Positions 3,161-54,163 of a DNA stretch of 64,000 bases are shown piece after piece. A program made the position numbers and the translations under genes. Each line of letters begins with the position of its first letter. Position 1 is the first letter of the stretch. The DNA lies in contig DAORXN010000007.1 of the NCBI GenBank assembly GCA_035358955.1, positions 27,174 to 91,173 on the forward strand, written 5' to 3'. This stretch comes from Syntrophales bacterium. GTDB taxonomy: Bacteria > Desulfobacterota > Syntrophia > Syntrophales > UBA8958. Below the pieces are notes generated by a model. The model was given only the letters and a program-made list of their open reading frames with translations, was not told the origin of the DNA and did not search any database.

Positions 3161-4423
3161 ATGGAAAAGGTAGTCATATTGAGTTGTGCGCGGACGCCTA
3201 TCGGGGCATACGGAGGGTCCTTGAAGGACGTCCCCGTCTACCGGTTGGCGAGCGCGGTCCTTAAGGCAGCGGCCGAAAGGGCCAAGGTAGATCCCGCCCA
3301 GGTCGATGACGTGATCATGGGCAGTGCCTATCAGAATGGGGAGTGCGCCAACGGCGCCCGCATGGCCATCCTCGATGCCGGCTGGCCCGACACCGTGCCC
3401 GGGGTGGTGATCGACCGGCGCTGTTGCTCCGGGCTGGATGCTATATTTATGGGGGCCATGAAGATCCAGACGGGGAATGCCGATATCGTCATTGCCGGTG
3501 GTATGGACTCCATGAGTCAGGCGGAGCTCTACATTCCAGGCGATATAAAATGGGGACTGGGTGGAAAGAACCACGAAAAATACGGTTTCATGCCCCGTGG
3601 TCATGGAGCCCTCGCCATGTGGGGGATTCCTCTGTATGACCGGATTCAGAGGGCCCGGGTCATGTCGCAGCCTGTCCATCGCTACGGGGAGCTGAGCTCC
3701 ATGATGACTTGGGCCGAGACGGCGGCCAAAAGGGAAAACATCAGCCGCGAGGAGGCCGATCGGTGGGCCTTAAGGAGCCACATGCGCGCCGTAGCAGCCC
3801 AGGATGCCGGTAAATTTGCCGAGGAAATAGTCCCCATTCCTATCGGAAAGGGCAAGACAGGAGAGGATTTGGTCTTTTCTACCGATGAGGGGCCCCGAAG
3901 GGATACGACCCTCGAGAAACTGGCCCGTCTGAGACCTGTTTACCCCGATGGGGTATGCACGGCGGGAAATTCCTCTTCCGAAAATGACGGAGCCGCCGTC
4001 GTGGTTTTGGCCTCGGAGAAGAAGGCAAGAGAGCTCGGCCTCGAACCCATGGCCGTGTTCCGGGCATGTGCCGTTGCCGCCACGGATCCCACCCTTACCT
4101 ATCCGGCTGTGCCGGAAGCGGTGAGCAAGGCCCTCGCCAAAGTAGGGGCGACCATTCACGATATGGACTTAATTGAGGTGCAGGAGGCCTTTGCCGTCCA
4201 GTGCCTGGCCGATGCGAGGATGTGCGGCCTTTCCGATGAGGAGATGGAGGAAAAGGTCAACGTAAACGGGTCGGGCATCTCCCTCGGGCATCCCATCGGG
4301 GCGACGGGGACCATGAGGCTCACCACCCTCTTGTATGAGATGAAACGTCGTAACGCACGCTACGGATTGGAAACGATCTGCGGCGGTGGCGGTCAGGGTA
4401 TCTGTATGATTGTGGAAAGATAA
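3161..4423 (+). CDS. Acetyl-CoA acetyltransferase (thiolase) family protein
   Basis: 420 aa. Active-site Cys region DRRCCSGLDA, C-terminal thiolase signatures NVNGSGISLGHPIGATG and CGGGGQG. Confidence 0.9.
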   Translation: MEKVVILSCARTPIGAYGGSLKDVPVYRLASAVLKAAAERAKVDPAQVDDVIMGSAYQNGECANGARMAILDAGWPDTVPGVVIDRRCCSGLDAIFMGAMKIQTGNADIVIAGGMDSMSQAELYIPGDIKWGLGGKNHEKYGFMPRGHGALAMWGIPLYDRIQRARVMSQPVHRYGELSSMMTWAETAAKRENISREEADRWALRSHMRAVAAQDAGKFAEEIVPIPIGKGKTGEDLVFSTDEGPRRDTTLEKLARLRPVYPDGVCTAGNSSSENDGAAVVVLASEKKARELGLEPMAVFRACAVAATDPTLTYPAVPEAVSKALAKVGATIHDMDLIEVQEAFAVQCLADARMCGLSDEEMEEKVNVNGSGISLGHPIGATGTMRLTTLLYEMKRRNARYGLETICGGGGQGICMIVER

Positions 4424-47176: not shown

Positions 47177-47366
47177 CCCATCTGTTGGTTCACGAAAGGG
47201 ATATAACGCTTGGGAGGGCCGGTCAAGGGCAAATTTGGTGTATTGACATTTTTCTCGTAGTAATTCATGCTGATAAAAAAATAAGGGTGATGAGGTTCGC
47301 CCGAACCGCCCGCCTTTCGCATGCCGGGCTGATAACCTCTACTTCGTTGAAGGAGGTTTTTAGCCG

Positions 47367-48077
47367 ATGGAATCGGAGGCGCGGTCAATGTTTCATCCCT
47401 CACCGGGAGAAATCCACTATATCTGGTGGTATATCCAAGGTAGCATCATGAACCCCGAGGTACGAAGGACCCTGCGTCGTGCCTGGGGTATGTGCGAGAG
47501 GCATGCCTGGCTTGCCCTTTCGATCGAAGCGTCTCTTCGGCACTCCTTCCTCATGGGACCGGCCATTGTCTATGCAGAACTGATGGAGAAAGCAGCCCAG
47601 ATTATGATGGAGCAAGGCCCTTTGAGTGGCTTGAGGCGTATGACAATCCTTCGTGCCCGCGGCATGTGTCTCATGTGTGAGATGGGATTGGGACCCCATT
47701 CGCGGGGGTTTGCCTCGCCGGAGGTGGTCGATCGGGCGAAGGATGTAAGGGAACTAAAGAAATTCGCCGAGATGACCCGCCCCTTCTGGGAGGAGACGGT
47801 GTGCGGTGTATGCGAAGGAACCCATAGGAAGGCAAGGTGCCGACCACATTTGGTGGAAGATCTCACCAAGGGGAGAAAGGTTGATTTGAGCGTGCAGAGG
47901 GCTCTCGTAAAGTCGATTAGCGATCGCCTCAACGTTTATTCCCACGCCTTTGTTTGGGAACACCGGGGTACCGATACGGTGGCAGACCGGGCGGCCCTGG
48001 TCAGTGCCGTGGGGTGGTGTAGCGGCTGGCGACCTCTTATCCGGCTTGTTTACGAGAGCAAGGATGAGAGGAGCTGA
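47367..48077 (+). CDS. Cys-rich hypothetical protein (two CxxC pairs plus a C-E-R-H-A-W motif)
   Basis: 236 aa. GGAGG RBS 10 nt upstream. Motifs AWGMCERHAW, GMCLMCEMG, VCGVCEG..ARC. I cannot assign a family. The 3' end overlaps the convergent gene by 28 nt. Confidence 0.5.
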   Translation: MESEARSMFHPSPGEIHYIWWYIQGSIMNPEVRRTLRRAWGMCERHAWLALSIEASLRHSFLMGPAIVYAELMEKAAQIMMEQGPLSGLRRMTILRARGMCLMCEMGLGPHSRGFASPEVVDRAKDVRELKKFAEMTRPFWEETVCGVCEGTHRKARCRPHLVEDLTKGRKVDLSVQRALVKSISDRLNVYSHAFVWEHRGTDTVADRAALVSAVGWCSGWRPLIRLVYESKDERS

Positions 48078-48898
48078 AAAGAGGCAAGGGCGAGATAGGT
48101 GTTCTCCAGGGTGGCAATGCCCGTATGGGTGGTTCGGGCGTAGCCCCCATTTATCCGGCGACAGGCAAGAAGAAAGTCTCGGATGACCTTAGGGTAGGTG
48201 GGTGGTGCCGAAAGGAGGCCCGATAGCTCCAAACCGGCATGAATATGCTCTAAATAGGAGAATTGGTTCCCCGGTAGGTTAACAAAACCGTGCCCCTCAT
48301 CTTCACAATGGCGTAAGAAGCGGTATATCTTTTGTAAGTCGACTAGTGCGCCCAGGTATTGGAGGATAAAGACGGCATCCCTCGTTTCCATGAGGGTGGA
48401 TCTTGCGTGTCCAAAGCCACCATCTCCCCTTTGATGTGAGGTCACGAACGATAGAAGGTCCCTCTTTTTCTCTGGTGGAAGATTGACCTCGAGCCACCGA
48501 TGGAGTTTTGTCAGGTGGTAGAGTTGTGCGAAGATGGAAGCACTGCCAGGTGGCAAAAGGGAGATATCGTATGTCCGGGTGTGGGCTATGAGGTAATCCC
48601 GGGGATCGAAGAGGGGAGGTGCATTTAATAGGCGAAGCCCCCCGATGGCAAAAAAGGCCTGGAAGATACTCTCATATGACCCGTCCCTTTTTTGCCTTGA
48701 CCGGAGGAAAGCGAGGGTATCTTCATCAGGAGATAAGCTACCAACCAGGTTAAGTGAGGCCAGGGCGAAGTAAGTGTCGGCCAAATTGGGCTCCTCCAGC
48801 CTATAGAAGCAATAGCCACCGGCCTGGCAACGCCTCATCTTTAGGTAATTGATCGTAGATGGTAGGTCCAGGATCCCAAAAGAAACGGAGGGCTTCAT
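48050..48898 (-). CDS. Prenyltransferase / squalene-oxidase-repeat (alpha/alpha toroid) protein
   Basis: 282 aa with repeated ..GG(Y/F)...xxxTYxALxxLxLL.. units (QAGGYCFY..TYFALASLNLV; RDGSYES; GDGGFGH..RDAVFILQYL; INGGYAR..TYLALASFQLL) typical of prenyltransferase beta-subunit-like repeats. Lies 8 nt downstream of the dynamin-like gene. Confidence 0.6.
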   Translation of the reverse strand: MKPSVSFGILDLPSTINYLKMRRCQAGGYCFYRLEEPNLADTYFALASLNLVGSLSPDEDTLAFLRSRQKRDGSYESIFQAFFAIGGLRLLNAPPLFDPRDYLIAHTRTYDISLLPPGSASIFAQLYHLTKLHRWLEVNLPPEKKRDLLSFVTSHQRGDGGFGHARSTLMETRDAVFILQYLGALVDLQKIYRFLRHCEDEGHGFVNLPGNQFSYLEHIHAGLELSGLLSAPPTYPKVIRDFLLACRRINGGYARTTHTGIATLENTYLALASFQLLSSLLS

Positions 48899-48906
48899 AA
48901 CAATAG

Positions 48907-50565
48907 TTAAGCTTTGCTTATGGCGTCCAGGGCTTCTTCCAGTTTGCTCATCATCCCGGCAATTTCTTCCGATTGCCCTTGGGTTTGGGAGAGGAGGGAT
49001 TCGATGGTCTGGATCTCCTCCCTAATGTAACGGGAAGCTTGCTTTCGCATGTCTTCTATGGTCCGGTTGATGCTCATCTCCCATTGCGCTCCCAGTCGGG
49101 AGAAGTTTACGAATACCTCTCGGTAGACGAGCCGCAAGAAGTGGCGCTCGAAAAGGGGGCGGAAGATGAACATGGGGATGATAAACCACAGAAGATCGAA
49201 GTGGAACTCGAAGACGTGCCCTACTCGGATATCGGGGCGGGCGGGTTCAATGACCTCAATTTTCCACTCCGGAGGGGTCATTTTCACCCCCAGGACGCGT
49301 TCCATATTCATGCCGATCATGGTCCTGAAGGTCTCGAGATAACGTTCGAGGGCTGCCTGAGCCTTGATCAGGGTACCGAAGAAGTGCTTTCTTTCCCGAA
49401 ATGAGATGGCATCTATCTCCGAAAACAGGTTCTGTTCCATCCATTCTTCATACTTGCGCGTAAGCTGCCAGAGATTGCCCCGCCAGGTGGACATGTCCCT
49501 TTTTAGATCTTCCCTTAATTTTTCCGCCATGGGGGCTCGGAAGGCCTCGAGGTGTTTTTCTATGTGCGTTCTCGTATGGATGGCCTGGGCCCGCGTGAGG
49601 ACAATGAGTTCTTCCTCAATCTGGGCGAGGTTGGATTTTTCCCCCAAGATCTGGGCCCGCAAGTTTTCCCTATCCGAGTCTACCTGACGGGACGTCCGTA
49701 AGGCAACCTCGAGATAATCACGGGTGGCATGGGCCAGGGATTTTATCTTGTGTTTTACAATGCTCCGAAATTCACGGTCTCTATTTGTCGTAAGGGGGAG
49801 GAGGAGTTCCATATCCAGGCGGTGCTTGAATTTTTCCATGCCTTCCCGGTTGGAATAAAGAAAGATGGGGAATTCCCGATTTAGCTCTCGATTTAAGGTT
49901 TCCTGAAAGAATTTGATGATTTCCTGCCTCTGCTCCGGCGTTATGAGATCCACTTTAGTAATCATGAGGACGATGCGAGGGGTATAGCGGAGGAGTTCCC
50001 TGATCAACTGCACATCATTTTCCGCCAAGGGGCGCTCGGCACTAACGGCGAGGATAGCCGCCCCTACTTCAGGGAGCCACTGTTCGGAGGTTTCCATGTG
50101 GTATTTGAAAACACTCCCCAGCCCCGGCGTATCTACGAAACGCAATCCTTCGTAGTCATCGAGGGAAGGAAGTTCAATGTCCACGACGGCTACATCTTTC
50201 TTGTTGGCGGGGTTCTTCGCCTCTGATGTGAACTCCTCAAGGCGCTCTAAGGGAATTTCTTCTTGGGTGCCGTCGAAGTGGGTGACGATAGCCTTTTCCC
50301 TTTCTCCGTATTTAAGCCTGGTTATGACCGTAGTAACGGGAATAACGCCGACGGGAAGGAGCCTCCGCCCGATGAGGCTATTGATAAACGAGCTCTTACC
50401 TGCCTTGAATTGTCCCAATATGGCCACGTCAATGAGGGGCGATTGCCCCACCAGACGGTCGGCCACTTGAAGTTCTCTTTTAAGAGACACCAAATTAAGG
50501 CGCTCCGTGGCCTGATGGACGATTCTCAACACACAATCGGCCGGGGTAAGGTTATCTGTTGGCAT
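48907..50565 (-). CDS. Bacterial dynamin-like GTPase
   Basis: P-loop GQFKAGKSSFINSL, G3 FVDTPGLGS, G4 TKVD, then a long helical stalk. The ATG at 50565 has AAGGAG 7 nt upstream; the track used the TTG at 50571. Confidence 0.85.
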   Translation of the reverse strand: MPTDNLTPADCVLRIVHQATERLNLVSLKRELQVADRLVGQSPLIDVAILGQFKAGKSSFINSLIGRRLLPVGVIPVTTVITRLKYGEREKAIVTHFDGTQEEIPLERLEEFTSEAKNPANKKDVAVVDIELPSLDDYEGLRFVDTPGLGSVFKYHMETSEQWLPEVGAAILAVSAERPLAENDVQLIRELLRYTPRIVLMITKVDLITPEQRQEIIKFFQETLNRELNREFPIFLYSNREGMEKFKHRLDMELLLPLTTNRDREFRSIVKHKIKSLAHATRDYLEVALRTSRQVDSDRENLRAQILGEKSNLAQIEEELIVLTRAQAIHTRTHIEKHLEAFRAPMAEKLREDLKRDMSTWRGNLWQLTRKYEEWMEQNLFSEIDAISFRERKHFFGTLIKAQAALERYLETFRTMIGMNMERVLGVKMTPPEWKIEVIEPARPDIRVGHVFEFHFDLLWFIIPMFIFRPLFERHFLRLVYREVFVNFSRLGAQWEMSINRTIEDMRKQASRYIREEIQTIESLLSQTQGQSEEIAGMMSKLEEALDAISKA

Positions 50566-50580
50566 ATCCAAGCTCCTTGC

Positions 50581-50613
50581 AAAAAAAAACTCCTGCCGAT
50601 TTTATTGCAGGAG
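50581..50613 (-). terminator. Intrinsic terminator forming the expression platform of riboswitch copy 1
   Basis: Minus strand: (A)CUCCUGC-AAUAAAAUCG-GCAGGAG(U) followed by U9 (plus-strand A run 50581-50589). The 5' arm is shared with the 3' pseudoknot strand of the aptamer. Confidence 0.75.
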
Positions 50614-50660
50614 TCATCAGCCCTCGCGGGCAATTCTTTGCGGTGAACTCCATCACCTAT
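50605..50660 (-). ncRNA. Fluoride riboswitch (crcB motif), copy 1
   Basis: Minus strand: AGGUGAUGGAGUUCACC-GCAAAGAAUU-GCCC-GCGA-GGGC-UGAUGACUCCUGC. This matches the crcB-motif core as I recall it: a GGnGAUGGnGUUCnCC hairpin, an A-rich joiner, a short GC stem, and a GGCUGAUGAnnCC tail whose CUCC pairs with the loop GGAG. Confidence 0.8.
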
Positions 50661-50667
50661 GTCATTA

Positions 50668-50824: not shown

Positions 50825-51460
50825 ATGTGTGGACGATTTGTGCTCCTTTCTAACCTCTCTCGCATTGAAGACCATTTCGGCCTACGTGATATACCTGCCT
50901 CTTTCAGCCGAGGGAATAACGTCTCCCCCGGCGAAAAAATCCTGGCCGTGCGTTGCCACGAAGGGAGGCGTGAAGCCGCGGTTTTCCGGTGGGGATTCGT
51001 GCCTTCCTGGATGAAGGAGATGCCGAAGGGAGGGGGATTTATAAATGCCAGGGCCGAGTCTATTGCGTTCAAGGCGACCTTTCGGGAGGCCTTTCGTAAG
51101 AGGCGATGCCTTATCGTGGCGGACGGTTTTTACGAATGGCAGAAGTTAGCAAACGGTAGCAGGAAACCCTGGTTCTTTTACCTTCCATCTCGGGTTCCTT
51201 TCGCCTTGGCCGGGCTCTTTGAAACTTGGGTTTCCCCCAGAGGTGAAGCTGTAAGTACTTGCGCTATCATCACCACCCAGGCAAACGAGCTTATTTCCCC
51301 CATCCACGAGCGCATGCCGGTCATAATTGCGCCCCAATATTACGATTTTTGGTTAGGATTGGAAAGCGGCGATTGGGAAGGGTTAGCTGACCTTCTTTGC
51401 CCCTATCCCGCAACAGAAATGATGAGCCGGGCTGAGTTTCCCGTTTTGCGCATTCTTTAA
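50825..51460 (+). CDS. SOS-response-associated peptidase (SRAP / YedK-like abasic-site processing protein)
   Basis: 211 aa. N-terminal MCGRF with catalytic Cys2, and the conserved ..RWGFVPSW.. and ..CLIVADGFYEW.. segments. Confidence 0.9.
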   Translation: MCGRFVLLSNLSRIEDHFGLRDIPASFSRGNNVSPGEKILAVRCHEGRREAAVFRWGFVPSWMKEMPKGGGFINARAESIAFKATFREAFRKRRCLIVADGFYEWQKLANGSRKPWFFYLPSRVPFALAGLFETWVSPRGEAVSTCAIITTQANELISPIHERMPVIIAPQYYDFWLGLESGDWEGLADLLCPYPATEMMSRAEFPVLRIL

Positions 51461-52659
51461 AGTTTGTTCAAAATATCCTTTTCATCTGGGGCTTGGTCAT
51501 CCAGGATAGGTTCTTCCATGAGATGGACGGGGAGAAAGCATTTATTGGCCACCAGCGTAGGAACGATGGCGCTTAGGATAACTACGGCCACCAGCAATGA
51601 ATATTGGGCCTTCGTGACGATATTTTTTTGTAGCCCGAAGAGGGCAGAAATGGTTCCGAAGGTGAGTCCCGTACTCATGAGGAGCGTATAGTACCACTTT
51701 TCTTTTCCGTTATCTCGGAATTGTTTTATGGCAGGGTAAAGGCCAAAAATCTTGAAGGAAAGCTTTCCTGCCAACAGAAGGGTAAAAGATACAACGCCAG
51801 AAATCACCGCAGGAAGATAAACGAGGGCACCGGCTCTAAGAAAGTAGAGCGGAGTGAGAAATCCAATAGTCAGGGTCCTTAATCGGCGTACGAAATGGCC
51901 GTCTGACTCCATTATGCTGCTTAAGGTCATACCCATAATGTAGGCGGGTAGCACCGGTTCACTTCCCGACCAGTAAGCAAGCGTGCCCAAGCTGAGAAGG
52001 CAGAATATTACCCACTTGGCCCGGATTGCAGCGTTACGATAGGCGAAGTGGTGGATGATAAGCTTCGTGATAGTGGGAAGGAAGAAAATCACTGCTCCGG
52101 TGACGATGATGAAGATAAGTGTTTTGATGGTGAAAGGCACAAAAATGAGCCCCAGAGCAATTACGGTGCCCAGGTCGTTGATGAAGCATGCCCCTAAGAT
52201 CCCTTTGCCGAATTCCGTTTTGTTGAAACCGTATTCTAACATAACGGTGTATACGACGGCCATAGAAGTCGTAGAGAGGGCGATGCCGCCAAGAAGACTG
52301 GCCCTTATGTCCCAACCCAATAAGTAATAAGCTATAAGGAAGCATCCCGCAAATGGTGCTGCGAAGCCAATAAATCCGACGACGGTTACTTCCTTGGCTT
52401 TTTCTTTCATCATATCGAAATTGAGTTCGGCACCAGCGAGGAAGGTAAGGAGAATGGCACCCATTCCGGTACAAAAGGTCATCCATTGGTCATTTAATGC
52501 CAGTTGATCAAAGAATCCCAACTTAACGGCAAAGAAGCTTATAGATACCCCCACGATGATTTCCGTAAGGGACACGGATATTCTAAGGCGATTAGCTATG
52601 ATAGTGGAAATTACAGCGGCCAAGAACCAAAAAGATGCTACTGTATATACATTAGCCAT
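51457..52659 (-). CDS. Cation:proton antiporter (Na+/H+ exchanger family, CPA-type)
   Basis: About 400 aa and polytopic. ..LLTFLAGAELNF.. and ..ACFINDLGTV.. resemble Na_H_exchanger family motifs. The ATG at 52659 has AAGGAG 7 nt upstream; the track start at 52704 lies inside the riboswitch. Confidence 0.8.
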   Translation of the reverse strand: MANVYTVASFWFLAAVISTIIANRLRISVSLTEIIVGVSISFFAVKLGFFDQLALNDQWMTFCTGMGAILLTFLAGAELNFDMMKEKAKEVTVVGFIGFAAPFAGCFLIAYYLLGWDIRASLLGGIALSTTSMAVVYTVMLEYGFNKTEFGKGILGACFINDLGTVIALGLIFVPFTIKTLIFIIVTGAVIFFLPTITKLIIHHFAYRNAAIRAKWVIFCLLSLGTLAYWSGSEPVLPAYIMGMTLSSIMESDGHFVRRLRTLTIGFLTPLYFLRAGALVYLPAVISGVVSFTLLLAGKLSFKIFGLYPAIKQFRDNGKEKWYYTLLMSTGLTFGTISALFGLQKNIVTKAQYSLLVAVVILSAIVPTLVANKCFLPVHLMEEPILDDQAPDEKDILNKL

Positions 52660-52661
52660 GC

Positions 52662-52698
52662 GATGACTCCTTTTTGTGCTTAATGATAAGGAGTCATC
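52662..52698 (-). promoter_or_regulatory. Anti-Shine-Dalgarno expression platform of riboswitch copy 2
   Basis: The aptamer tail GAUGACUCCUU (52698-52688) is perfectly complementary over 11 nt to AAGGAGUCAUC (52672-52662), which contains the antiporter SD. A 15-nt loop separates them. Confidence 0.7.
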
Positions 52699-52736
52699 AG
52701 CCAAAAGGCGGTTTAAGAGGTGAACTCCATCACCTT
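52685..52736 (-). ncRNA. Fluoride riboswitch (crcB motif), copy 2
   Basis: Minus strand: AAGGUGAUGGAGUUCACC-UCUUAAACC-GCC-UUUU-GGC-UGAUGACUCCUUAUC. The 5' hairpin and 3' tail are identical to copy 1. The middle stem differs but stays complementary (GCC/GGC versus GCCC/GGGC). Confidence 0.85.
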
Positions 52737-52797
52737 GTCAAAAGTTATTCTTTTCGTACCAGTTGCGCTTTTAACTGTCAAAGGGAATTTGGAGTAA

Positions 52798-54133: not shown

Positions 54134-54163
54134 ATTATAATAGAACATATGTTCTATTGTCAA
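54134..54163 (-). promoter_or_regulatory. Consensus sigma-70 promoter with an embedded LexA-type (GAAC-N4-GTTC) operator for the Y-family polymerase
   Basis: Minus strand: TTGACA (54163-54158), then ATAGAACATATGTTCTAT (54157-54140), then TATAAT (54139-54134). The 18-nt spacer is a perfect palindrome containing AGAACATATGTTCT. GGAAGGAGG RBS and the ATG at 54105 follow. Confidence 0.7.

What the first reader, a model, noticed from the sequence alone, without database searches (positions are those of the whole stretch)
51457..52741. Second fluoride riboswitch uses an 11-nt anti-Shine-Dalgarno platform to gate a cation/proton antiporter
Seen: on the minus strand, 52736-52685 reads AAGGUGAUGGAGUUCACC UCUUAAACC GCC UUUU GGC UGAUGACUCCUUAUC, another crcB-motif aptamer. 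Its 3' tail GAUGACUCCUU (52698-52688) is perfectly complementary to AAGGAGUCAUC (52672-52662). That segment contains the AAGGAG Shine-Dalgarno located 7 nt before the antiporter ATG at 52659. Inference: without ligand the tail can sequester the SD. With fluoride the CUCC is held in the pseudoknot and the SD is freed, giving a translational ON switch. Cation/proton antiporters are, to my recollection, among the accessory genes reported downstream of fluoride riboswitches, so the target is plausible. This also argues that the annotated-looking start at 52704 is wrong. No terminator separates the element from the upstream LexA-box-controlled polymerase gene, so SOS-driven read-through transcripts would still be gated at the translation step.
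Basis: partly seen in the sequence, partly recalled or inferred. Interest (0 to 1): 0.65.

Follow-up and report, generated by a model that had tools for sequence, protein, structure and literature searches.

The report
Fluoride riboswitch gating an antiporter's translation
This is a genuine but ordinary fluoride-sensing RNA switch that hides the ribosome-binding site of a sodium/proton-antiporter-type gene until fluoride is present; both the gene pairing and the mechanism type are already documented for this riboswitch class.

Summary
Rfam places a fluoride (crcB-motif) aptamer at 52743-52681 (-) with 53.3 bits against a threshold of 34. Its 3' tail GAUGACUCCUU (52698-52688) is the exact complement of AAGGAGUCAUC (52672-52662). 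That segment holds the Shine-Dalgarno sequence 7 nt before ATG 52659 of a 400-aa Na_H_Exchanger protein.

Eighty homologous loci show the design is conserved. 73 carry the aptamer directly upstream and 78 have one in the locus. In 56 distinct short leaders the tail:SD helix is 87.6% paired, with compensatory changes at three positions. The pseudoknot, which uses five of the same nucleotides, is 99.3% paired. The best reading is therefore a translational ON switch in which the SD strand competes with the pseudoknot.

ATG 52659 is the real start, not TTG 52704.

The SOS read-through idea is only incidental. A LexA-like box does sit in the dinB promoter and no terminator follows dinB. However, a promoter-like element lies in the 54-nt spacer, and dinB is next to the antiporter in none of the 80 loci.

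Antiporters are the second most common gene class linked to fluoride riboswitches, and sequestering-hairpin translational platforms are described. This is a new member of a known kind. No ligand response was tested.

The parts
52753..52781 (-). Candidate dedicated sigma-70-type promoter: -35 TTGACA (52781-52776), a 17-nt spacer, and -10 TACGAA (52758-52753). The -10 ends 18 nt before P1.
   Evidence: Read from the sequence. It was not flagged by the consensus scanner because the -10 lacks T at position 6. Syntrophales homologs have TTGACA-16-(A/G)TTAAT upstream of the aptamer, and L037 has a near-identical TTGACA...ATACGAA. Its function is inferred only.
52681..52743 (-). Fluoride riboswitch aptamer (crcB motif, RF01734). 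P1 is GGUG 52734-52731 with CACC 52722-52719. The P1 loop is AUGGAGUU 52730-52723. P2 is GCC 52709-52707 with GGC 52702-52700. The conserved 3' tail is CUGAUGACUCCU.
   Evidence: Rfam cmscan gives 53.3 bits (gathering score 34), E = 5.7e-12, full-length model match.
52724..52728 (-). Pseudoknot 5' strand: GGAGU in the P1 loop.
   Evidence: It is complementary to ACUCC 52694-52690. The 6-bp loop:tail duplex has an energy of -8.4 kcal/mol. The pseudoknot is 99.3% paired across 56 leaders.
52690..52694 (-). Pseudoknot 3' strand ACUCC. This is the switching sequence shared by the pseudoknot and the anti-SD helix.
   Evidence: Alignment columns 46-50 belong to both structures.
52688..52698 (-). Anti-SD strand GAUGACUCCUU (5' arm of the sequestering hairpin).
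   Evidence: the repeat finder pair I2, 11 nt and 100% complementary. It is part of the MFE helix.
52673..52687 (-). 15-nt loop of the sequestering hairpin (AUCAUUAAGCACAAA).
   Evidence: In most homologous short leaders this loop is of similar length (about 10-22 nt; dot-bracket structures).
52662..52672 (-). SD strand AAGGAGUCAUC (3' arm). The Shine-Dalgarno core GGAG is 52670-52667.
   Evidence: The GGAG-to-start spacer is 7 nt here and in 37 of 55 homologous leaders.
52657..52659 (-). True start codon ATG of the antiporter.
   Evidence: Homolog alignments begin at residue 1. Public gene calls give a 400-aa product. 53 of 58 homologs have an in-frame stop upstream.
51457..52659 (-). Cation/proton antiporter gene (400 aa plus stop). 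It is a Na_H_Exchanger family protein with a NapA-like fold, N161-D162 in place of NapA's DD motif, and K303 aligned with NapA K305.
   Evidence: Pfam PF00999, 104 bits. The TIGR00932 CPA2 model scores 85.9, below its cut-off of 238.3. The best PDB matches are NapA 5bz3 and 4bwz, E = 1e-10. ND and K are invariant in 80 of 80 homologs.
52702..52704 (-). Spurious in-frame TTG that gives the longest ORF (415 aa). It lies in the P2 loop and 3' strand of the aptamer.

Best explanation
This is a fluoride-responsive translational ON riboswitch. The leader of the antiporter mRNA starts with a crcB-motif aptamer.

Without fluoride, the aptamer's 3' tail (GAUGACUCCUU) pairs with AAGGAGUCAUC 15 nt downstream. 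This forms an 11-bp hairpin (12 pairs with a terminal U-G) that buries the Shine-Dalgarno sequence ending 7 nt before the AUG, so ribosomes cannot load.

With fluoride, bound as a Mg2+-F- cluster, the tail's ACUCC is held in the pseudoknot with GGAGU of the P1 loop. The SD strand then cannot invade, and the antiporter is translated.

The hairpin (about -14.6 to -16.4 kcal/mol) is far more stable than the 6-bp pseudoknot (-8.4 kcal/mol). The decision is therefore probably made kinetically as the RNA is transcribed: only 26 nt separate the end of the aptamer from the end of the SD strand, and only two loop-proximal pairs (UU:AA) lie outside the pseudoknot as a toehold.

The antiporter, a NapA-like CPA protein with an ND...K signature, presumably counters the acidification and ion imbalance that come with HF entry.

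Shown here: the aptamer, both alternative helices, their overlap, their conservation and covariation, the start codon, and the absence of a terminator U-tract. Inferred: fluoride binding, the direction and size of the response, kinetic control, and the transporter's substrate.
For: Aptamer: 53.3 bits against a threshold of 34.

Helix: 11 nt, 100% complementary; present in the MFE fold with z = -3.7 and -3.9; SD pairing probability about 1.0.

Energetics: tail:SD duplex -16.4, hairpin -14.6, pseudoknot duplex -8.4 kcal/mol.

No U-tract follows the hairpin (GCAUGGCUAAUG), and no terminator-like site was called there.

Comparative evidence: 73 of 80 homologous antiporter loci (57-73% identity; Syntrophales, Bacteroidales, Spirochaetota, Thermoplasmatota and others) have the aptamer directly upstream. 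This was confirmed by Rfam on a sample of 16 loci. 78 of 80 have one in the locus.

On the register-anchored alignment A1 (50 distinct leaders), 88.9% of cells are paired, 3 pairs have compensatory changes (32 cells), 0 of 500 shuffles reach the observed values, and slid registers give 36-50%.

On the structure-blind MAFFT alignment A2 (56 leaders), the anti-SD helix is 87.6% paired. Pair 42/88 is GC 15, GU 14, AU 13; pair 45/85 is AU 27, GU 14, GC 11; pair 52/78 is GC 12, AU 8. The pseudoknot is 99.3% paired.

A tail purine A is never opposite C (0 of 21; Fisher p = 4.6e-4). Each leader's own tail:SD duplex is more stable than swapped partners (-13.4 vs -12.4 kcal/mol; Wilcoxon p = 0.0014).

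Within the same window, the third aptamer has a shifted pseudoknot (GAGGU/ACCUC), and its SD-side complement is shifted to match (AGGAGGUU).

Literature: antiporters are the second most common associated gene class (PMC11139923). Translational fluoride riboswitches with 'sequestering hairpins' are described (PMC12667848). In the B. cereus switch an invader strand displaces the pseudoknot (PMC11754884).
Against: All evidence for switching is structural and comparative.

At equilibrium the sequestering hairpin beats the pseudoknot by about 6-8 kcal/mol. A purely thermodynamic model would therefore predict a mostly OFF switch, and the kinetic rescue is an assumption.

RNAalifold on alignment A2 returned only P1 as consensus and did not itself predict the anti-SD helix.

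Four of the 11 pairs in alignment A1 were fixed by my choice of register (CUCC:GGAG). CUCC is complementary to any GGAG Shine-Dalgarno sequence by default.

The sequences are related, so shuffle counts and Fisher p-values overstate independence.

In the ligand-bound-mimic fold, part of the SD/AUG region can still form a small 6-bp hairpin (AGUCAU/AUGGCU).
Confidence: 0.85

Rival explanations
1. The switch acts mainly at the level of transcript abundance. SD sequestration leaves the nascent antiporter mRNA untranslated, which allows Rho-dependent termination or faster decay inside the ORF. Translational control would then be only the trigger. This is an add-on to the best explanation rather than an exclusive alternative.
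For: Coupling of translational riboswitch control to Rho-dependent termination is established for other classes (Bastet et al. 2017, listed in the references of PMC12667848). There is no intrinsic terminator after the hairpin, so any transcriptional effect would have to be factor-dependent.
Against: Nothing in the sequence was tested for Rho utilisation sites. The conserved feature across 56 leaders is the SD-containing helix with a fixed 7-nt spacing to the start codon, which points to the ribosome as the primary target.
Confidence: 0.3
2. The hairpin is an intrinsic terminator, so the element is a transcriptional ON switch like the neighbouring riboswitch at 50666-50601.
For: The other minus-strand aptamer in this window does use the tail in a terminator (GACUCCUGC/GCAGGAGU followed by U9). 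Several Bacteroidales homologs have a U-run right after the tail:SD hairpin (for example L034, L021, L038, L046) and could act in both ways.
Against: In the window the hairpin is followed by GCAUGGCUAAUG with no U-tract. No terminator-like site was called there. The 3' arm is the SD itself, at optimal spacing from the AUG.
Confidence: 0.03
3. The complementarity is a by-product of two independently conserved sequences: the aptamer's CUCC and a GGAG Shine-Dalgarno sequence. It would then have no regulatory role, and the aptamer would be a relic or would act only on read-through from dinB.
For: CUCC is automatically complementary to GGAG. Four to six of the 11 pairs would be expected from this alone.
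Against: The helix extends 5 bp beyond the SD into UCAUC and co-varies there (G-C, G-U, A-U at two positions, and A is never opposite C). Own partners pair better than swapped partners. The pairing is kept even across loops of about 90 and 140 nt in L040 and L053. Slid registers collapse to 36-51%.
Confidence: 0.03
4. Translation starts at TTG 52704, so the 'aptamer' overlaps coding sequence, and the hairpin is an intragenic structure.
For: The longest ORF starts at TTG 52704.
Against: The 15-codon extension is encoded by the aptamer tail and hairpin. No SD precedes the TTG. Nearly all homologs (most of the 80 loci) align from residue 1 of the ATG protein. 53 of 58 have an in-frame stop in the leader. 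Public gene callers report the 400-aa product on 15 contigs.
Confidence: 0.01

Closest known systems
Translational fluoride riboswitches (for example Pseudomonas syringae eriC-F and Burkholderia pseudomallei; RF01734 with a sequestering-hairpin expression platform)
   Same: Same aptamer class. The same logic applies: the aptamer's 3' pseudoknot strand alternatively pairs with a downstream segment, forming a hairpin without a terminator U-tract. [quoted passage not shown] PMC8814607 notes regulation 'presumably through translation'.
   Different: The host lineage (a Syntrophales-like metagenomic genome) and the controlled gene (a CPA antiporter rather than a fluoride exporter) differ. I could not read the sequences of the published examples, so a base-by-base comparison of helix length and toehold was not made.
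Bacillus cereus crcB fluoride riboswitch (transcriptional ON)
   Same: The invader strand displaces the pseudoknot by pairing with the same conserved tail (GACUCCU...) (PMC11754884). The window's own riboswitch at 50666-50601 is of this type.
   Different: In B. cereus the hairpin is a terminator followed by a U-tract and preceded by a 7-bp direct toehold. In the window the 3' arm is the Shine-Dalgarno sequence, there is no U-tract, and only about 2 bp (UU:AA) lie outside the pseudoknot.
Fluoride-riboswitch-associated Na+/H+ antiporters (Baker et al. 2012, as summarised in PMC11139923)
   Same: A Na_H_Exchanger-family gene lies directly downstream of a fluoride aptamer, and the proposed role is pH and ion homeostasis under fluoride stress.
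   Different: The clade found here has a specific invariant ND...K signature (80 of 80) and is under riboswitch control in nearly every member sampled (78 of 80 loci). I found no statement of this in the papers I could read. No transport data exist for it.
Thermus thermophilus NapA (CPA2 Na+/H+ antiporter; PDB 4bwz, 5bz2, 5bz3)
   Same: It is the best solved homolog, E = 1e-10, aligned over residues 10-365. The lysine equivalent to NapA K305 is conserved.
   Different: NapA's ion-binding DD motif is ND here. The CPA2 subfamily model TIGR00932 scores below its cut-off (85.9 vs 238.3). ND is typical of electroneutral CPA1 exchangers (from my own knowledge, not tested here).

Membership tests
Fluoride riboswitch (crcB RNA motif, Rfam RF01734) | Covariance-model score at or above the curated gathering score over the full model | tested here: met
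   53.3 bits against 34, model positions 1-64 of 64, E = 5.7e-12.
Fluoride riboswitch (crcB RNA motif, Rfam RF01734) | P1 and P2 helices with the conserved loop and joining nucleotides (GAUGGNGUUC, AACCGCC, CUGAUGACUCCU) | tested here: met
   The alignment to the consensus shows both helices. P1 is 99.6% paired with 3 compensatory pairs across 56 homologous leaders. P2 is short (2-3 bp) and 79.5% paired.
Fluoride riboswitch (crcB RNA motif, Rfam RF01734) | Pseudoknot between the P1 loop and the 3' tail | tested here: met
   GGAGU 52728-52724 is complementary to ACUCC 52694-52690. The duplex energy is -8.4 kcal/mol. It is 99.3% paired in 56 leaders. The register co-varies in the window's third aptamer (GAGGU/ACCUC) and in L067 and L070 (GAAGU/ACUUC).
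Fluoride riboswitch (crcB RNA motif, Rfam RF01734) | Selective binding of fluoride (as a Mg2+-F- cluster) | not testable with these tools
   This requires in-line probing, ITC or NMR with NaF.
Fluoride riboswitch (crcB RNA motif, Rfam RF01734) | Location in the 5' leader of a gene class tied to the fluoride response | tested here: met
   The aptamer ends 21 nt before the ATG of a Na_H_Exchanger gene. Antiporters are the second most common associated class (PMC11139923).
Translational (SD-sequestering) riboswitch expression platform | The Shine-Dalgarno sequence lies inside a helix that is mutually exclusive with the ligand-bound aptamer fold | tested here: met
   GGAG 52670-52667 lies in the 11-bp helix, whose other arm contains the pseudoknot strand 52694-52690.
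Translational (SD-sequestering) riboswitch expression platform | The alternative helix is conserved and co-varies among homologs | tested here: met
   87.6-88.9% paired, 3 compensatory pairs, 0 of 500 shuffles reach the observed values. RNAalifold alone did not call the helix.
Translational (SD-sequestering) riboswitch expression platform | No intrinsic terminator (U-tract) after the hairpin | tested here: met
   GCAUGGCUAAUG follows the helix, and no terminator-like site was called there.
Translational (SD-sequestering) riboswitch expression platform | Ligand-dependent change in translation initiation | not testable with these tools
   This requires reporter fusions or toeprinting with and without NaF.
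Cation/proton antiporter superfamily (Pfam PF00999 Na_H_Exchanger) | Pfam domain above the gathering score over nearly the whole protein | tested here: met
   104.1 bits against 26.2, residues 13-369, profile positions 2-372 of 375.
CPA2 subfamily (TIGR00932; NapA/KefC type) | Subfamily model above its curated cut-off | tested here: not met
   85.9 bits against a cut-off of 238.3.
CPA2 subfamily (TIGR00932; NapA/KefC type) | DD ion-binding motif in TM5 and a lysine in TM10 | tested here: not met
   The query has N161-D162 where NapA has DD. K303 aligns with the NapA lysine. ND and K are invariant in 80 of 80 homologs. The protein is therefore filed only under the CPA superfamily, not as a CPA2 member.
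Cation/proton antiporter superfamily (Pfam PF00999 Na_H_Exchanger) | Measured cation/H+ exchange | not testable with these tools
   This requires transport assays.

The most novel reading that the evidence does not exclude
The antiporter may not be a generic housekeeping Na+/H+ exchanger. It may instead be one part of a conserved, largely undescribed fluoride-stress membrane module. The other part would be an IniA/BDLP-type dynamin-like GTPase (with a prenyltransferase-like toroid protein in some genomes). The supporting points are these. The ND...K antiporter clade is under fluoride-riboswitch control in 78 of 80 sampled loci across several phyla. The dynamin-like GTPase is itself preceded by a fluoride aptamer in 12 loci and sits in apparent operons with the antiporter. 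The held literature contains no paper that mentions both 'fluoride riboswitch' and 'dynamin'. If true, fluoride toxicity would have a membrane-damage or membrane-remodelling component that bacteria sense and repair. The clade's altered ion-binding motif might also reflect a substrate or stoichiometry specialised for fluoride stress.
Probability: 0.3. Interest if true: 0.55.

Novelty: new member of a known kind. Interest (0 to 1): 0.25.

Why it matters
For the finding itself, the value is in annotation. It fixes the antiporter's start codon at ATG 52659. It identifies the 5' leader as a regulatory RNA. It also predicts that the gene is silent without fluoride, which is useful when interpreting transcriptomes or proteomes of Syntrophales-type anaerobes.

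The comparative set built here adds a clean natural experiment. It comprises 56 distinct translational leaders and about nine Spirochaetota terminator-type leaders, all in front of the same orthologous gene. This shows one aptamer being wired to two different read-outs, and it shows covariation in a translational expression platform, which has been harder to demonstrate than covariation in aptamers.

It does not change what is known about fluoride riboswitches. The more interesting lead is the neighbouring, riboswitch-controlled dynamin-like GTPase.

Tried and rejected
- RNAalifold on the plain MAFFT alignment of 56 leaders predicted only P1. I therefore counted pairs for the window-derived structure explicitly instead.
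- Three key papers could not be read because they are not held: Baker et al. 2012 (PMC4140402), Ren et al. 2012 (PMC3744881) and Breaker 2012 (PMC3331882). Statements about them rest on later papers that cite them, or on my own knowledge where marked.
- My regex for aptamers gave minus-strand hits in L003, L012, L016 and L018. These fall inside a conserved plus-strand coding ORF. I treat them as false positives; they do not affect the per-locus counts.
- tblastn with E. coli CrcB, and motif scans for CrcB and CLC signatures, found no fluoride exporter in the window. These tests are crude and do not prove absence.
- The consensus promoter scanner did not flag a promoter between dinB and the aptamer. 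The candidate TTGACA-17-TACGAA rests on reading the sequence and on positional similarity to homologs.
- Terminator reading of the hairpin: rejected because there is no U-tract.
- Chance complementarity: rejected by covariation, the swap control and the slid registers.
- TTG 52704 start: rejected by homolog N-termini, in-frame stops and public gene calls.
- A conserved SOS link: rejected because dinB and SRAP are absent from all 80 homologous loci.
Full report
**Observation**

Rfam's fluoride riboswitch model (RF01734) matches 52743-52681 (-) over its whole length. The score is 53.3 bits against a gathering score of 34, with E = 5.7e-12.

The repeat finder reports 52662-52672 and 52688-52698 as an 11-nt, 100% complementary inverted repeat with 15 nt between the arms. 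On the RNA these arms are GAUGACUCCUU (the aptamer's 3' tail) and AAGGAGUCAUC. GGAG ends 7 nt before ATG 52659.

Folding 52745-52640 or 52745-52655 puts this helix in the minimum-free-energy structure. The z-scores are -3.7 and -3.9, and none of 200 shuffles folds as well. The SD nucleotides are paired with probability of about 1.0 in the ensemble.

**Context**

The window holds three fluoride aptamers within 6 kb:
- 52743-52681 (-) lies before a 400-aa PF00999 Na_H_Exchanger protein at 52659-51457.
- 50666-50601 (-) lies before a dynamin-like GTPase and a prenyltransferase-like protein.
- 47277-47348 (+) lies before a 236-aa ORF with no family or structure match.

Upstream of the antiporter element, on the same strand, is a Y-family polymerase gene at 54105-52798 (IMS domains). 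It has a perfect TTGACA-18-TATAAT promoter. The spacer of that promoter holds the 16-bp palindrome TAGAACATATGTTCTA. This palindrome contains the only GAAC-N4-GTTC site in the window.

Downstream, an SRAP gene converges on the antiporter and overlaps it by 4 nt.

**Comparative evidence**

A scan of one genome per species returned 80 loci encoding homologs of the antiporter at 57-73% identity. They come from Syntrophales/Smithella, Bacteroidales, Spirochaetota, Thermoplasmatota and others. Nearly all align from residue 1 of the ATG-started protein.

A relaxed pattern for the aptamer core found it directly upstream of the gene in 73 of the 80 loci. Rfam confirmed this on a spread of 16 loci.

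Of the remaining loci, one is truncated. Five carry the aptamer about 2 kb upstream, in front of a dynamin-like GTPase gene that precedes the antiporter on the same strand. In total, 78 of 80 loci have at least one aptamer.

Two platform types occur:
- In the window and in 57 short-leader loci, the tail pairs with the SD just before the start codon. The median contiguous helix is 10 bp (range 4-12), against 11 bp in the window. The GGAG-to-start spacer is 7 nt in 37 of 55 leaders.
- In about nine Spirochaetota loci, the tail forms a hairpin that is followed by a separate terminator hairpin and a U-tract.

**Is the helix selected?**

CUCC is trivially complementary to GGAG, so the test must rest on the flanks.

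On a register-anchored alignment of 50 distinct leaders, 88.9% of cells pair. Three of 11 pairs show compensatory changes (32 cells). No shuffle out of 500 reaches the observed values, and sliding the partner by 1-3 columns drops pairing to 36-50%. Four of those pairs were fixed by my anchoring.

I therefore repeated the count on a MAFFT alignment of 56 full leaders made without reference to any structure. There the anti-SD helix is 87.6% paired:

| Pair (columns) | Pair types observed |
|---|---|
| 42/88 | GC 15, GU 14, AU 13 |
| 45/85 | AU 27, GU 14, GC 11 |
| 52/78 | GC 12, AU 8 |

When the tail purine is A, its partner is never C (0 of 21; Fisher p = 4.6e-4). Each leader's own tail:SD duplex is more stable than its duplex with other leaders' SD regions (-13.4 vs -12.4 kcal/mol; Wilcoxon p = 0.0014). 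L040 and L053 keep the pairing across inserted loops of about 90 and 140 nt.

The sequences are related, so these numbers overstate independence. RNAalifold by itself returned only P1.

On the same alignment the pseudoknot (P1-loop GGAGU with tail ACUCC) is 99.3% paired, and it uses five of the columns of the anti-SD helix. Both alternative structures are thus conserved and mutually exclusive.

A within-window control agrees. The third aptamer has a shifted pseudoknot (GAGGU/ACCUC), and its SD-side complement is shifted to match (AGGAGGUU).

**Mechanism**

The best-supported reading is a translational ON switch. Without fluoride the SD strand captures the tail and the SD is buried. With fluoride the tail is locked in the pseudoknot and the SD is free.

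No U-tract follows the hairpin and no terminator-like site is called there. Intrinsic termination is therefore excluded for this copy. By contrast, the neighbouring aptamer at 50666-50601 uses the same tail in a textbook terminator: GACUCCUGC/GCAGGAGU followed by U9, at -13.8 kcal/mol.

The sequestering duplex (-16.4 kcal/mol; hairpin -14.6) is much more stable than the 6-bp pseudoknot duplex (-8.4). I therefore infer that the outcome is decided kinetically during transcription, as established for the B. cereus switch, in which an invader strand displaces the pseudoknot (PMC11754884). In the window only two loop-proximal pairs (UU:AA) lie outside the pseudoknot as a toehold. Fluoride binding, the size of the response and kinetic control are all inferred, not shown.

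**Start codon**

TTG 52704 gives the longest ORF, but it lies in the aptamer's P2 loop. Three lines of evidence favour ATG 52659:
- Homologs align from the ATG.
- 53 of 58 short leaders contain an in-frame stop between the aptamer and the start codon.
- Gene callers on 15 public contigs report the 400-aa product.

**The SOS remark**

No terminator-like site separates dinB from the aptamer, and the dinB promoter does carry a LexA-type palindrome. Read-through is therefore possible.

However, the 54-nt spacer contains TTGACA (52781-52776), a 17-nt spacer and TACGAA (52758-52753). Syntrophales homologs have a conserved TTGACA-16-(A/G)TTAAT promoter ahead of the aptamer. Bacteroidales homologs have a TAnnTTTG motif just 5' of P1. 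L037 has a near-identical TTGACA...ATACGAA.

Neither dinB nor SRAP is next to the antiporter in any of the 80 loci. The SOS adjacency is local to this genome and probably incidental.

**The transporter**

The closest solved homolog is Thermus NapA, with E = 1e-10. The protein falls below the CPA2 subfamily cut-off (85.9 vs 238.3). It has N161-D162 where NapA has its DD motif, while the lysine aligned with NapA K305 is kept. Both features are invariant in all 80 homologs. I file it under the CPA superfamily only. Its substrate and stoichiometry are unknown.

**Comparison with what is known**

- Na+/H+ antiporters are reported as the next most common fluoride-riboswitch-associated genes after the exporters (PMC11139923, citing Baker et al. 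2012).
- Fluoride riboswitches are said to use terminators or 'presumably' translation control (PMC8814607).
- A 2025 preprint names the B. pseudomallei and P. syringae representatives as translational. [quoted passage not shown]

The element is therefore a new member of a known kind. Its aptamer, target gene class and platform logic are all precedented.

**Verdict**

Novelty is low and interest is 0.25.

The most interesting by-product is outside the finding. A bacterial dynamin-like GTPase is closest to IniA, Campylobacter DLP and Nostoc BDLP. It is repeatedly placed under fluoride-riboswitch control and next to this antiporter clade in several phyla. No paper in the held library mentions both terms.

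Noticed in passing
window 48050-50666 (-): A second fluoride aptamer (50666-50601, 53.9 bits) has a classic terminator platform (GACUCCUGC/GCAGGAGU followed by U9). It controls a bacterial dynamin-like GTPase (true start ATG 50565; closest PDB entries IniA 6j72, Campylobacter DLP 5owv, BDLP 2j68) and a prenyltransferase-like alpha-alpha toroid protein (48898-48050). Homologous GTPase genes are directly preceded by a fluoride aptamer in 12 related loci from Syntrophales, Bacteroidales and Leptospirales, and they sit beside or in apparent operons with the antiporter. No paper in the held library contains both 'fluoride riboswitch' and 'dynamin'.
   Followed up: partly
window 47277-48077 (+): A third fluoride aptamer (47277-47348, 45.9 bits) has an altered pseudoknot register (loop GAGGU, tail ACCUC) and a matching SD-side complement (AGGAGGUU). 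It lies upstream of a Cys-rich 236-aa ORF (47367-48077). That ORF has no Pfam, NCBIfam or PDB sequence match and no homolog in the 80 related loci.
   Followed up: partly
window 51457-52659 (-); loci L001-L080: The riboswitch-linked antiporter clade has an invariant N161-D162 where NapA has its DD ion-binding motif. It also keeps the lysine aligned with NapA K305 (80 of 80 homologs). This is an unusual ND-plus-K combination for a NapA-like protein.
   Followed up: partly
L059, L061, L064, L065, L066, L071, L075, L077, L078 (about 150 nt upstream of position 4001): Spirochaetota orthologs of the same antiporter use a transcriptional platform instead. The aptamer tail pairs into a first hairpin, which is followed by a separate GC-rich terminator hairpin and a U-tract. 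This looks like a three-hairpin design (anti-antiterminator, antiterminator, terminator).
   Followed up: no
L040 (leader before position 152) and L053 (leader before position 4001): Two Smithella leaders keep the tail:SD pairing (GAUAACUCC with GGAGUUAU) even though structured insertions of about 90 and 140 nt lie in the hairpin loop.
   Followed up: no
window 54134-54163 (-): The dinB (Y-family polymerase) promoter is a perfect TTGACA-18-TATAAT. A 16-bp palindrome TAGAACATATGTTCTA (GAAC-N4-GTTC, LexA/Cheo-box-like) lies in its spacer. This is the only such site in the 64-kb window.
   Followed up: partly
window 51457-51460: The antiporter (-) and the SRAP/YedK-like gene (+, 50825-51460) converge and overlap by 4 nt, with no terminator between them. 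Transcription of each gene would run antisense into the other. SRAP is absent from all 80 homologous loci.
   Followed up: no
window 1-64000: No CrcB or CLC-F fluoride exporter was detected in the window, despite three fluoride riboswitches within 6 kb. The tests were crude: tblastn with E. coli CrcB and signature-motif scans.
   Followed up: partly
L003 2078-3780 (+) and equivalent positions in L012, L016, L018: In several Syntrophales loci, a NifU-like protein and a GGGtGRT-motif protein are encoded between the dynamin-like GTPase gene and the antiporter riboswitch. They may belong to the same fluoride-controlled transcription unit.
   Followed up: no
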